Part shown: positions 14,693 to 51,920 of the stretch, piece by piece
Layout of the letters: each line of letters opens with the position of its first letter
Numbering within the stretch: the stretch's first letter is position 1
Assembly: GCA_964016885.1 (NCBI GenBank)
Contig: OZ024741.1
Coordinates: 288,176,001 to 288,240,000, forward strand
Source of the DNA: Eledone cirrhosa
Taxonomy: Eukaryota
Direction: 5' to 3'
DNA length: 64,000 bases
Position numbers and translations under genes: made by a program
The notes under the pieces: model-generated
What the model saw: only the letters and a program-made list of their open reading frames with translations
Told to the model about the DNA's origin: nothing
Databases searched by the model: none

Positions 14693-14730
14693 TATGTACG
14701 TTTCGCCCAGTTGGGCTTCTCAAGGGCATA
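14693..14730 (-). ncRNA. Minimal type-I hammerhead ribozyme motif, U3-A8 core variant
   Basis: TATG-CCC-TTGAGAA-GCCC(AACT)GGGC-GAAAC-GTA-CATA, followed by AATAAA, in the PLE 3' region. Confidence 0.65.
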
Positions 14731-15023
14731 AATAATCACAAGTGCTCCTTATATTGCTCGGAAAGAGTTTTTGGGGTTAAATCCACATCAAGGTTCATTG
14801 CTCGCAAAAATATCTTGTTTTGATTTTGCAGCAGGTCAAGGGAGGTAACTCTGGCCGGTGTTAGGGCAGTCTTTCCCCGGACAATTTAATTTTTTTTTTT
14901 TTTTGCCGCATCCGTTTGTCTGAGGCTGGGTCTGGTATGCAAGGATTGTTTCCTGGGTGTTATTTTGCAGCGCCTGCCCGCCGGGGTGTTAAGACTTGTT
15001 GCAGGGAGATCCATTGTACTGTT

Positions 15024-15926
15024 TCACTCTTCATCCTTAACCCATCTGAAGAAGGATATTTTTAAGCGATGTGTACAACTTATCGCTGTTTCAGCTCTGC
15101 TGTTGATGAGCTCGTGGGGTGCAGTTATGATGTGGTAGAGCTCCATGAGGCAAAGATCGCATTTCCTCTTGAAGTTGTACGGTGCAGCCCTGCTGACAAT
15201 CTCCCAGTGCATGGAGAAGCTGATGTTTAAGTCCTTTAGTGATGTGATGTAGTCCGCGAGCGAAGTGGAGTGCCTTAGTTTTCTATTTGTGAAAGAGTGG
15301 AGATGTGTTCGAAACCTAATTTTGAACGGGCCGGAGGTGGCCCCTATATAATGTTTAACGCTATTGTGGCTAGTGATAGTGCATCTATATATAGCCCTAT
15401 CAGTCAAGCAGTATCCTCTAAGGGGGCAGCGTCCTCTGTCGCGGCAGTTGCAATTTCTGTCGCGGTTCCGTCTATTTCCCACGGTAAGGCTATCATTGTT
15501 GCTGCCTATGTTGTTACCTACGCTACCGCAGCTGTCGTTAGCACAATTACAACCCACAGCACGCGGGGTGGTGCTATTGTTATTCCGCACGTCATGTTCC
15601 CCAGTCATTTCGCGGTTATTCTGGTTGCGTCTGCGGATGCCGTTGCCAACACTATTGGATGCTGCCAGGGAGTTGTTAAGGCCGATATAGTTATTGTCAG
15701 GTGTAGGTGCGTCTGTGTCGAGGTGCTGTGTCGTGGTGATCTTACTGTGGTTTGTTGTTCCTATGATGTCTGTTAGGTTAGGAGTAGTAGAGAAGGATAT
15801 TTTTATATTGTTCCTATTAAGAATTTTTCTATACCTATGGTTGGGTGGGAAGTTCTTCTCTAAGGCTTCGAAGAACATCCGGGGTATGTTGGAGGCCACA
15901 CTCCGAGAGTAGGGGGGTGGAACCAT
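15024..15926 (-). pseudogene. PLE linker + GIY-YIG endonuclease coding segment
   Basis: RAIYRCTITSHNSVKHYIGATSGPFKIRFRTH; open for 300 codons, continuing ORF 15860..16780 after a frameshift in a C-run. Confidence 0.88.
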
Positions 15927-16899
15927 AGGACGTTACGGTGGCGATTACGTGTCCTTGTACTTTTGCTACGGGTGGTTCCATCTAAGTGACCGTTCTTATG
16001 TGTGTTAATGCGCAGTCGCCCGTTCGGTGCCCCTTTCACTTTATGCTCGGGTGCACACTTTCTACCTCTTCCATGTTTATGTACACGAAGATGTTGGTTG
16101 GAAGGCGTTGGTAGTAGGCCGTCGCCTTTGTTGGTTTTGTAATAGGGGAATAGTTTGAGTAATCTACAGTGTTCACCGTTGCCGGGGACGTGATCTTTGG
16201 TGCGGTTATCTATTCTATTATATCCGACTTCAACGAGGTTGCCACGTGATCGGTTATAGGTATGGCTTACTATAACGTTAGTTTTATGAGGGGGGTGGTT
16301 TCTAGAGCTAGTGTTAGGGATGTAAGAAATTCCTCGGTTAAAGCCGGCGCTTATCAGGGCCCTATTGTAGTAATCTGCCGCTTGGTTGAAGATATCCTCA
16401 TTGGCGGATAGCCTCGAGATTCTATGTGAGATACTATAGACTATGGAGTTGAGAGTCTGCTTAGGGTGGTTGGAGGCATAATTAATATAAGAGAGGCACT
16501 CTCCAGGCTTATGGGATGGCTTGTATGAGCCAGTACTCAACTCCATGGTCACGTCCAGGAAGTTGACAACCCTGTGGTTGAGGTCCATAGTTACGGATAG
16601 GCCGTATGACTTAAAGAACCTGTGTATATGTTTGTTAAGGTTCTCTATCCTACGGGGGCTATGGTTCCTAACGGTAAACAGGGCGTTGTCCCTATATACA
16701 TTCTTCCCTAAGCTTATGTAGGAGGTATATCCCGACCAGGTCAGTTGCTTGCGCTGAGTCACTGGACCCCATCGTGACATCGAAGTTATCAGGACGGTTG
16801 GTTCTGGTCCAGTGGGAGCCTTCGAACTGGATAATGGTTCTACGTGCCGCTAGAATTATGTCTATTTCTTTTATATATATATATATATATATATATATA

Positions 16900-48486: not shown

Positions 48487-50499
48487 TTAAAACACGATTA
48501 GCTGACCATCTGCTAGTATCTCAATAGGAATAGGTTTTAGACATCAGTTAGCAGAAAATAGAAAAAAAGATAAAAAAACATTGGGATTAAAAGGGAGTGA
48601 AGGTATATGATTAGTAATTTCTATCATTAGATATTACTGTTATCTGACAACATAGCAGATACAATGGAAGGAAGGTGAAGTAGAGAACCATGTCAAATCT
48701 TTAACAGGTTAGATACATATATATGAACCAATAACTTTTGGGAGTCGTAAGAGTGGTGTCATGACATTTCTCAAGCATTTAAAACCTGGCAGAGCACATC
48801 CCTCTCAAGGTTTGAACAGGAGAAAGAGAGAGGCAGTGAGAAAGAGATATAGAGGAAGAATCAGCCCTAGTACAGAACTGGTATTATATTTTATCAACCT
48901 CAACAGGATGAAAAGCAAAGTTAATCTCGGCGAGATTTGAACTCAGGCGAGAGAGAGCAGACAATTAGAATGATTACTGCAAAGCATTATATCTGACATT
49001 TTAATGACTCTGCCATTTCACCACCTCACACATTAGACAATGAAATAGTAAAATAATGAAGAGTTGAAGTGGGACTGCTACCTATGGTACCGAGAGCTAT
49101 AAATAAATCAGATTCAAATACAAAGTATTAAATATCTGAATAAAAAAACAAAAATCAATACCAAAAATGTGATGTACACTAAACAATATATAGTGTGCAA
49201 ATTTTGGTGTTCACTGATGACTTTGCTGCACCTATTGTAGTGCACAAATTAGTTGTTTTAATATCTCACAGTAGCTCATTTTAACTTTGGTATCAAGTGT
49301 TTGCCAGAAACGGTGACATCACTATAAATTATGTAGTGCCTCACCTAAGGCAGAATTTACAGCTCAGATATTGCAGATCTGCAATATAATATAACATAAT
49401 GCTAGGTGGGAGCTATGAATACCATGCTACATAAACCTAGATACTAAATGTGAGTACCAAATGCAGAGTGCAAAATGAAAATAACAATTTTCAAAATGCT
49501 CAAAAATGAAAATGAAAAAGTACAGTATGCATAATTTCAGAATTGCCAAACTGAAATTGTGTTGACTTCCTCTCAGGATGGGTGGAGTAACTGGATCCTG
49601 CCAGTGAATCCATGGTGTCAAAACCTGAAGCTAGTCATGCTCAACAATCATAGATGTCTGACACAGAGATCAATCAATTATGATTCCAACAGGACACAGC
49701 ATTCCAGGATGTTCAATATGTCATCATCATCATCATCATCATCATCACCATTTAATATCTGTCTTTCCTGCTAGCAAGCATTGGATAGGTCTTCACTGAC
49801 CAAGTCAGTACTCTAACAGAGTTACTGATCTCTCAGATGGGCTGGAGGCCTACATCATGCTTACATATGTTTCTCACTGGATGCATTTTATTATAGCACC
49901 AGCACTAGGGAGGTTATGATGACTTTGAAATAGCTGAAAAGTCCTTTTGGCCCTTTGTTTGGCAAGTTTTCTACCACTCTATACCCTTCCTATTACCAAC
50001 CACTTTAATATAAATTGCAATACTGAAAGTTCAGAATATTGTCATGGTTGTCACTATGTTACACTTTGATACAAAATATTTTTATTAGTAGGTTGAGAGG
50101 AGATGGTATTGCTGACTTGACTGCATCTCCTCCCAGTGTCAGTATCCAAGTATTGTAAGTTCATGGGATGTGTGTGTATTCTTGTTCAATCAGAAGAGCA
50201 ACATGTGGCAGTGATAGTGAGTGGAGTTGCACAACTAAGATATAATGCAATACATGAGGTAGGTGAAGATGCTAAGAAAGGACACCACAACAACATATAT
50301 AGAACAGAGGTCCCAATAGGATTGGAGAACACTGGTGACAATATGGAGCAATAAACATCATCATTTAACATCTATTTTTTAAGCTTGCATGCACTAGATG
50401 GGTTGTCACATTCTGTGGTTAGACTGGACAGGTGATCATGTTTAAGTCATACATTCCATTTTTGGCATGGTTTCTATGCCTGGATGTCCTTCCTAGTGC

Positions 50500-50780
50500 T
50501 AACCACTTTATAGCTTGCACTGGCAGCATTTTATTATGGCACTAGTACTACCACTTTACTGTGTGCACTGGGTGATATTATCATGACATCAGTCCAACTT
50601 TACTGTGTGCACTGGGTGACATTATCATGACATCAGTCCCACTTTACTGTGTGCACTGGGAGCATTTTATTGTGACAACAGCACTATGAACATCCAGGGT
50701 GGACTGGGAGCATTTTATCATGGCACCAACACTACCACTTTACAGAGTGTACAGGGAATATTCTATCATGACATCAGATC
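50500..50780. repeat. ~45-bp tandem array derived from the SINE/RTE 3' segment
   Basis: CACTTTACTGTGTGCACTGGG...TTATCATGACATCAGTC repeated about 5-6 times after a degraded tail at 50355-50500. Confidence 0.7.
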
Positions 50781-51562
50781 AATAAACAATTCTTTCCAGA
50801 CATCTGAAAGATATTACTCTAATAAGTAACAAAAGTGATATACATACAAGAAGCAGAATTTGAACTCCTACATTCACTCAATAGAAAGACTGAGTTGAGT
50901 AAACCCACCACCAATGCCATCACCAGAATGAGAATAAAATAAAATAAAATTCTACCAGATAAACACACCCACCCATCCACAATCTAATACACAAACAAAC
51001 ACACATACGCACACACATTTGTGTTGACATTAGCAAAAACGAAAACAAACAAATGAAAACAAAAAGTAAATAAATAAAAAAAATAGCAGCTGCAATGAAA
51101 ATGTAAACAGTAACATGACAACAGACACTGGACAACAGATACATGGTTGACAACAGACACACACTGGACAACAGACACATGCTTTCACAACACATACGCT
51201 GGACAAGAGATATACTTGACAGCATAACAAAGACAAGAAGGAAAGATAATCAGCTGGAGTTCGAGAAATCATTGATAAAGTCACAGCAGTGTGGCAAAAG
51301 ATTTCTGACAAATTCATTAAAAGCTGAACAACAAAAAGGGAACTAAAACTAGTCTATGTGTGAATGTGTGTGAATGTGTGTGAATGTGTTTAATAGAGCA
51401 AATTCCTGCTCCAAAAATGCAATATTGGTTATAGGACACAGTTTCATATAAAGAAATATTGCTATACAGAAACCATCTATATACATACCTATCTAATCTA
51501 AATAAATAAATTTATACACACACACACATATACATATACATATATATATATATATATATATA

Positions 51563-51920
51563 TATAAAGAAAAAGAGATGAAATCGAAAATGCAACTGGA
51601 GTCTTATTTAAAAAAAAAATATATATATTTATTTGGTTCCTTTACCAGTTTCGCAGTTCTTCTGCTTTTCAAAAGGTGAGTTGAGATGGAGGGTCTGTGG
51701 TTTTTCTCACTGTGAGAAAAACCACAGACCCTCCATCTCAACTCACCTTTTGAAAAGCAGAAGAACTGCGAAACCGGTAAAGGAACCAAATAAATATATA
51801 TATTTTTTTAAAAAATAAGACTCCAGTTGCATTTTCGATTTCATCTCATTTTCTTTATACTTTCACTCGTGTAGGACACCTCGGTTATTTTTCAATTTAT
51901 AAAAAAAACCTCACTTTCTA
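51563..51920. mobile_element. PLE pseudo-LTR as a near-perfect palindrome
   Basis: 51563-51710 vs 51712-51859, centre TTCTCAC-T-GTGAGAA; same family as 16903-17050. Confidence 0.88.
51746..51783 (+). ncRNA. Minimal type-I hammerhead ribozyme motif, U3-A8 variant
   Basis: CCTT-TTGAAAA-GCAG(AAGAA)CTGC-GAAAC-CG-GTA-AAGG. Confidence 0.75.

What the first reader, a model, noticed from the sequence alone, without database searches (positions are those of the whole stretch)
14693..51783. Three unrelated PLE-end hammerhead motifs share the compensatory U3-A8 core pair
Seen: hammerhead-shaped motifs at 14693-14730(-) with core TTGAGAA, at 16978-17015(-) and 51746-51783(+) with TTGAAAA, and at 26251-26338(+) with TTGATAA. 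Each has a paired stem II, GAAAC, a GUH cleavage triplet and a closing stem I, while the flanks are unrelated. Established: the canonical core is C3UGANG8A with a C3-G8 tertiary pair, U3-A8 variants are known, and PLE pseudo-LTRs carry minimal type-I hammerheads. Inference: the same double substitution in three different families is covariation, not decay, so these are probably selected ribozymes. CUGANGA-based searches would miss them, so this genome may hold a large uncounted ribozyme set.
Basis: partly seen in the sequence, partly recalled or inferred. Interest (0 to 1): 0.75.

Follow-up and report, generated by a model that had tools for sequence, protein, structure and literature searches.

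The report
Penelope hammerheads with known U3-A8 swap
These are real hammerhead (self-cutting RNA) motifs left by jumping genes, with an already published U-A swap of one core base pair that this animal genome carries in roughly 20,000 copies; the swap likely keeps the parent elements' RNA able to cut weakly, but cutting is untested.

Summary
The motifs are real: 5 strict hits in the window, 0 in 200 shuffles. Genome-wide, positions 3 and 8 covary: U3-A8 10,151 (control 1,270), C3-G8 16,012 (269), C3-A8 792 (603), U3-G8 813 (521). Motif A ends a Hydra-type Penelope-like element (PLE). Motif B (6,609 exact copies) lies in the pseudo-LTR of an intact Neptune-type PLE. Motif C (6,372 copies) is no coding-PLE end but a 591-nt non-coding tandem repeat, retrozyme-like, with PLE-style insertion ends. 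Two more U3-A8 copies and a canonical C3-G8 motif were missed. Selection is inferred for parent elements; some window copies are already decayed. The variant, its covariation and its escape from CUGANGA searches are published (Perreault 2011; Cervera and de la Pena 2014, about 1,300 hits in Schistosoma). A genomic test for cutting in cells (copies starting at the cut site) was inconclusive; most copies carry the uncut motif. This scan has noted the same thing several times before, on this genome and others. New member of a known kind; low to modest interest.

The parts
14688..14727 (-). Family A hammerhead, U3-A8 (UUGAGAA); family register GAAAC-GUAC-GUA, here decayed to AUA at 14695-14693; predicted cut 14693/14692; stem I likely 2 bp + bulge + 2 bp
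15027..16849 (-). 5'-truncated, frameshifted PLE ORF (RT thumb, CxCX5C linker, C-terminal GIY-YIG-like region), Hydra-type; hammerhead A lies about 300 nt after its stop, 350-385 nt in five other loci
   Evidence: no Pfam hit for these fragments
16978..17015 (-). Family B hammerhead, U3-A8 (UUGAAAA), palindrome ACCGGU, GUA; predicted cut 16982/16981
16901..18271 (-). Inverted 3' part (3' UTR plus pseudo-LTR) of the family-B PLE, ending on (TA)n
   Evidence: BLAST to the L083 unit
18273..19438 (+). Direct part of the same family-B PLE: N-terminal half of ORF2 (RT), 97.6% identical to an intact copy
25599..25759 (-). Inverted, 5'-truncated piece of the family-C unit with a second U3-A8 hammerhead (25674-25761; only 3 bp of stem I left)
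25755..26578 (+). 1.4 units of the 591-nt non-coding tandem repeat C (retrozyme-like), ending on (TA)n
26251..26338 (+). Family C hammerhead, U3-A8 (UUGAUAA), long stem II, palindrome ACUACGUAGU, GUC; predicted cut 26333/26334
51562..51710 (-). Short inverted family-B copy with hammerhead 51639-51676 (loop III C to U, palindrome broken)
51711..51927 (+). Short direct family-B copy with its tail; hammerhead 51746-51783, predicted cut 51779/51780
61103..61140 (-). Family D canonical C3-G8 minimal hammerhead with an extra A after A9 (not in the finding; an internal control)

Best explanation
These are minimal type I hammerhead motifs carried by two distant Penelope-like retrotransposon families and one non-coding tandem repeat that PLE proteins likely mobilise, and the U3-A8 pair is a compensatory swap that likely keeps the parent RNAs able to self-cleave weakly, probably as dimers or with protein help. 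Shown: the motifs, their place behind PLE ORFs (A, B) or in tandem units (C), the 3-8 covariation, and fixed 3' insertion ends downstream of the motif. Inferred: two motifs pair through the palindromic stem III; U3-A8 stands in for C3-G8; cleavage trims or monomerises multimeric transcripts; reverse transcription starts about 80 nt (or at the tail end) downstream of the cut site on mostly uncut RNA, so the whole motif is copied into new (TA)n sites, where copies decay neutrally.
For: Genome counts with reversed-pattern controls: U3-A8 10,151/1,270, C3-G8 16,012/269, C3-A8 792/603, U3-G8 813/521, R3-Y8 2,606/2,554, long-loop C3-non-G8 634/733. Stem II covaries across 19 hand-picked family representatives (score 1.006; 0 of 500 shuffles reach it; slid controls at most 0.22; the 19 of 19 pairing at 3-8 there is partly by construction). 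B lies about 1.0-1.4 kb after the stop of a 775-aa RT plus GIY-YIG ORF in 15 of 16 loci, with a full 4,712-nt unit in L083. The RTs of B and of an A-type stand-in are only 24% identical over 150 aa. Co-folding two copies gives intermolecular stem III and stem I for B, C and a family-A copy, 7.5 to 13.7 kcal/mol below two monomers. 28 of 30 B rows and 30 of 30 C rows end at one of two fixed 3' sites on (TA)n (rows overlap), the tail signature of Frangieh 2024. U3-A8 covariants are reported active in vitro (Perreault 2011 passage), and single 3 or 8 mutants kill a PLE hammerhead.
Against: No cleavage datum exists for any of these sequences. Monomer folds are no better than shuffles (z -0.2 to -1.9). 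Only about 155 B copies start at the predicted cut, against at least 6,609 that carry the uncut motif; that is about 6 times a window 25 nt upstream but only about 1.7 to 2 times a window 5-7 nt downstream (hand counts). None of 8 near-full-length copies starts at the cut. In A and B, U3 can pair with A17 in the co-fold, an off-register. One old family has C3 with U8 in 4 of 4 copies. In vitro, PLE insertion does not need cleavage, and 8 of 9 frog retrozyme dimers did not cleave. Independent origin of U3-A8 was not shown with a tree.
Confidence: 0.72

Rival explanations
1. The hammerhead fold is kept under selection for a job other than cutting, such as a binding or positioning site for the PLE protein near the reverse-transcription start; the 3-8 pair is kept for shape.
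For: Most copies derive from uncut RNA. The first 3' end lies about 80 nt past the cut site in both B and C. Cleavage is dispensable for insertion in vitro and no RNA reads ended at the cut in Anolis.
Against: All catalytic residues (G5, A6, A9, G12-A14, NUH) are kept across families. Catalytic mutants of the Anolis hammerhead did not change insertion, so the core fold is not needed for binding in vitro either.
Confidence: 0.17
2. The U3-A8 motifs are dead relics: one or a few ancestral elements drifted C to U and G to A under AT bias and multiplied regardless, so the empty mismatch cells reflect shared descent.
For: Both changes are AT-ward transitions in a 37% GC window. Counts are copies, not events. 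No C3-G8 family could be tied to an ORF, so no tree was built. An old C3-U8 family persisted.
Against: U3-A8 occurs in Hydra-type and Neptune-type PLEs and in two tandem repeats. At least 12 U3-A8 motif types show compensated stems I, II and III. No abundant intermediate family was seen. Neither position is in a CpG in A, B or C (sequence).
Confidence: 0.09
3. The motifs are chance matches.
For: Short motifs, weak monomer folding.
Against: 0 hits in 200 shuffles; thousands of copies at a fixed place in PLEs.
Confidence: 0.01

Closest known systems
Minimal type I hammerheads of metazoan PLE pseudo-LTRs, including the U3-A8 variant of Schistosoma mansoni Cercyon elements (Cervera and de la Pena 2014, PMC4209133; parts 1-2 of 4 of the text and supplement passages read)
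   Same: Same core swap (the supplement lists a UUGAAAA core), G10.1-C11.1, palindromic stem III, short stem I, pseudo-LTR location, inverted pairs, thousands of dispersed copies, missed by the C3-G8 descriptor.
   Different: A, B and C lack the extra base between A9 and G10.1 (D has it). Other host and PLE clades (Hydra-type, Neptune-type). About 20,000 copies against about 1,300.
Natural U3-A8 hammerheads (Perreault et al. 2011, PMC3088659; passages read)
   Same: C3-G8 covaries to U3-A8; such covariants are stated to be active in vitro.
   Different: The passages I read do not tie those examples to PLEs.
Animal non-LTR retrozymes (Cervera and de la Pena 2020, PMC7229834, passages; Li, Clavereau and Pollet 2026, bioRxiv 10.64898/2026.07.22.740005, parts 1-3 of 5)
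   Same: Family C: non-coding tandem units, one type I hammerhead each, proposed PLE-derived and PLE-mobilised; length within the 51-972 bp range of Li et al.
   Different: 591 nt exceeds the 170-400 nt of the 2020 paper. U3-A8 core and a long stem II. The term U3-A8 does not occur in PMC7229834 and, across the library, only in PMC4209133. Circular RNA untested.
Poseidon PLE of Anolis, PAc (Frangieh et al. 2024, PMC11167929; parts 1-2 of 4 read)
   Same: Two fixed reverse-transcription start sites downstream of the hammerhead, giving a tail; AT-rich targets; uncut RNA as main template.
   Different: PAc has C3-G8, one ORF and a 30-40 nt tail; B has two ORFs and a tail of about 65 nt, C about 165 nt.

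Membership tests
PLE minimal type I hammerhead | Core YUGANRA, GAAA, NUH in type I order | tested here: met
   B, C and family A meet it; the window copy of A has AUA for GUA
PLE minimal type I hammerhead | Watson-Crick pair between positions 3 and 8 | tested here: met
   one old exception; long-loop U3-non-A8 and short-loop R3-R8 or Y3-Y8 classes not searched
PLE minimal type I hammerhead | G10.1-C11.1 pair and paired stem II | tested here: met
PLE minimal type I hammerhead | Palindromic stem III allowing a dimer | tested here: met
   ACCGGU, ACGUACGU, ACUACGUAGU; co-fold
PLE minimal type I hammerhead | Extra base between A9 and G10.1 (usual, not universal: the same paper lists palindromic-helix-III variants) | tested here: not met
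   absent in A, B, C; present in D
PLE minimal type I hammerhead | Lies in the pseudo-LTR of an RT plus GIY-YIG element | tested here: met
   A and B. Not met for C: no PLE ORF upstream in 30 loci
PLE minimal type I hammerhead | Self-cleavage after NUH | not testable with these tools
   the genomic 5'-start proxy was inconclusive
Non-LTR retrozyme (family C) | Tandem units each with a type I hammerhead | tested here: met
   591-nt spacing, arrays of up to 5 units
Non-LTR retrozyme (family C) | No protein-coding capacity | tested here: met
   longest stop-free frame 86 codons
Non-LTR retrozyme (family C) | Expressed as a self-cleaved circular RNA | not testable with these tools
   needs RNA data or an assay
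Hydra clade PLE (element A) | C-terminal GIY-YIG with CxCX5C linker, (TA)n targets | tested here: met
   CNCRDRGRC in the translation; definition from Craig et al. passages
Hydra clade PLE (element A) | Placement in the RT phylogeny | not tested
   no reference set at hand
Neptune clade PLE (element B) | GxKF, DKG and CX2-5CxxC linker before a C-terminal GIY-YIG | tested here: met
   translation, Pfam RVT_1 and GIY-YIG; Nematis shares this linker
Neptune clade PLE (element B) | Placement in the RT phylogeny | not tested
   the label Neptune-type rests on motifs and on my recall of the clade
Naiad PLE (considered for A) | N-terminal endonuclease, no standard hammerhead | tested here: not met
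   A has RT then endonuclease, and a hammerhead

The most novel reading that the evidence does not exclude
In this genome U3-A8 is not a rare variant but a co-dominant core, reached independently by Hydra-type PLEs, Neptune-type PLEs and tandem retrozymes. It tunes cleavage down (helped by a U3-A17 off-register) so that uncut RNA can serve as the transposition template. Family C is a U3-A8 retrozyme that borrows a Neptune-type protein, sharing the +80 start distance with B, which would give a defined autonomous/non-autonomous pair for testing what PLE hammerheads are for.
Probability: 0.2. Interest if true: 0.55.

Novelty: new member of a known kind. Interest (0 to 1): 0.27.

Why it matters
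It adds a clean genome-scale covariation table for the 3-8 pair and shows that CUGANGA-only censuses would miss a share of the same order as the one they find in this genome. Element B has many intact copies about 98% identical, so it is a practical substrate for the open question of whether PLE hammerheads cut in cells and why. None of this changes the published picture: the variant, its covariation and its PLE setting were described in 2011 and 2014.

Tried and rejected
Rfam scan of the window at E up to 10: no hammerhead family among the 150 listed of 320 matches, mostly microsatellite hits to miRNA models. Naiad assignment for A: rejected on domain order. G3-C8 or A3-U8 class: no excess over control; one repeat family with GUGAUCA or AUGAUCA has no stem I in that register and was not counted. 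An apparent C3-C8 family proved to be decayed copies of a C3-G8 family; a C3-A8 pair has a C3-G8 homologue; two other repeats are not hammerheads. A candidate U3-A8/C3-G8 sister pair (L100/L008) was dropped: out of register and with no clear stems. An RT tree labelled by 3-8 state was not built because no C3-G8 motif in the fetched loci could be tied to its own ORF. Expression: no RNA holder listed; no reads were laid. The idea that the 5'-start cluster at -61 to -72 is a transcription start is untested; full-length copies also start elsewhere. Lunse, Weinberg and Breaker (RNA Biol 14:1499) is not held; I saw only its citation in a review, and it may already list such variants. Searches for 'C3U' with 'G8A', for 'U3A8' or 'C3G8', and for retrozyme with octopus gave nothing further. 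One supplement file of PMC4209133 and the bioRxiv supplements could not be seen.
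Full report
Observation. The window is G000:C2:288176001-288240000 of a 3.0-Gb animal genome; the taxon was not tested. All four named cores are present. A descriptor requiring core, G10.1-C11.1, a palindromic loop III, GUH and two pairs of stem I finds 5 motifs in the window and none in 200 dinucleotide shuffles. There are three U3-A8 families (A, B, C). Motif A is in the wrong register in the finding. 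All 23 distinct family-A places among the first 100 rows (hand count) have the GUA four bases after GAAAC, followed mostly by GGUG. The window copy reads AUA there, a change at a CpG, so it is damaged.

What carries the motifs. [quoted passage not shown] That linker is the Hydra-clade mark in Craig et al. (passages); Pfam gave no hit on these fragments. B has 6,609 exact matches to a 29-nt motif. In 15 of 16 loci fetched from hits to the window ORF at 18293-19489, B follows about 1.0-1.4 kb behind ORF2. Several loci have ORF2 intact at 775 aa with RVT_1 and GIY-YIG hits, and L083 holds a full motif-to-motif unit of 4,712 nt with an upstream ORF1. In the window, 16901-18271 is the inverted 3' part of that element and 51562-51927 a short inverted pair. 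B's RT is 24% identical over 150 aa to an A-type RT used as a stand-in. C has 6,372 matches, occurs as 591-nt tandem units, codes for nothing longer than 86 codons, and has no PLE ORF upstream in 30 loci. It fits the non-LTR retrozyme description, not a coding-PLE end.

Covariation. One pattern with positions 3 and 8 fixed in turn gave, with reversed-pattern controls: U3-A8 10,151 (1,270), C3-G8 16,012 (269), C3-A8 792 (603), U3-G8 813 (521). R3-Y8 gave 2,606 (2,554) and long-loop C3-non-G8 634 (733). These count copies, not families. The end anchors exclude some families, including most of B, and 15 of the 100 listed U3-A8 rows are double counts. Adding B and C gives about 20,000 U3-A8 motifs as a lower bound, the same order as C3-G8; the two classes were not sampled equally. 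In the listed mismatch rows I saw single mutants of known families, chance matches and one local tandem without stem II. Of five long-loop candidates followed up, four dissolved, and one old family keeps C3 with U8 in 4 of 4 copies. With 3 and 8 left free, 99 of the first 100 C rows are U3-A8 and one is U3-G8. Nineteen representatives that I picked (12 U3-A8, 7 C3-G8) show compensated stem II (covariation 1.006, 0 of 500 shuffles, slid controls at most 0.22). Their 3-8 pairing is partly by construction. Independent origins are inferred from the RT distance, not shown by a tree.

Mechanism. Monomers fold no better than shuffles. Two copies co-fold through the palindromes into intermolecular stems III and I, the dimer model of Cervera and de la Pena. 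In A and B the same fold pairs U3 with A17, a possible off-state (inference). B copies end at about +80 or at the tail end near +145 from the predicted cut in 28 of 30 rows; C arrays end at +80 (19 rows) or +245 to +253 (11 rows), onto (TA)n (rows overlap). This is the two-start tail signature that Frangieh et al. traced to internal reverse-transcription starts. They also found the PLE hammerhead protein-assisted, killed by single 3 or 8 mutants, partly rescued by the double mutant, and not needed for insertion in vitro. As a proxy for cutting in cells I counted B copies that begin at the cut. There were 219 matches, about 70% true breaks (21 of 30 loci; 73 of 100 listed rows by hand), against 34 matches (about 24 true) 25 nt upstream. 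A window 5-7 nt downstream gave 79 matches with an extra anchor that 21 of 30 test loci carry (about 75-90 true after scaling). The step is compatible with some cleaved templates, but also with stalling at the structure or AT microhomology. Eight near-full-length copies start at -172, -114, +21, +34, +38, +130, +140 and +243, none at +1. The test is inconclusive, and uncut RNA was the usual template.

Comparison with what is known. Perreault et al. 2011 report natural U3-A8 covariants and cite their activity in vitro. Cervera and de la Pena 2014 report the U3-A8 variant in Schistosoma Cercyon PLEs, missed by their first descriptor, with about 1,300 hits, and list a UUGAAAA core in the supplement. 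Retrozymes as PLE derivatives are described by Li et al. 2026, where 1 of 9 dimers cleaved. I found no mention of a U3-A8 retrozyme in the searches run, but the Lunse et al. paper and several supplements were not readable. Earlier notes of this scan reached the same reading on this and other genomes.

Verdict. A real, well-supported covarying hammerhead set of an already described kind. Interest 0.27.

Noticed in passing
L001-L030 (family B), window 51711: 18 of 30 rows start 61-72 nt upstream of the predicted cut, giving many short inverted pairs of about 150 nt; the cause of this 5' hotspot is unexplained.
   Followed up: partly
L086:9132, 9450, 9768; also L093, L100, L106, L120, L208: A second tandem U3-A8 family, 318-nt spacing, with a long palindromic stem III and compensated stem II; retrozyme-like.
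   Followed up: partly
L098:2357-9805, L083:7760-8225: A 466-nt tandem family with canonical C3-G8 hammerheads, in arrays of about 30 units.
   Followed up: no
L101-L108, L113, L114: Repeat family in inverted pairs with GAAAC-AAUU-GUA preceded by GUGAUCA or AUGAUCA; no stem I in that register, so possibly a decayed or differently wired hammerhead.
   Followed up: partly
L183:1567, L176, L195, L196: Old family (72-75% identical copies) with C3 and U8 unpaired in 4 of 4 copies, an exception to the covariation.
   Followed up: partly
window 1675-1711 (-): Decayed C3-G8 minimal hammerhead of a common family.
   Followed up: no
window 22250-24784 (-), 4729-7766 (-), 58401-60121 (+), 62398-62895 (-): LINE-type RT fragments; the 22250-24784 frame has RVT_1 and a PHD finger hit.
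   Followed up: no
L085:8670-9899, L108:3-1229, L204: A third PLE-like protein type with a C-terminal GIY-YIG; C3-G8 motifs lie 1.7-1.8 kb behind it in L204, link not established.
   Followed up: partly
window 16875-16901: The B insertion ends on the (TA)n run that also borders the 5'-truncated A element, so two PLE families share one microsatellite target.
   Followed up: no
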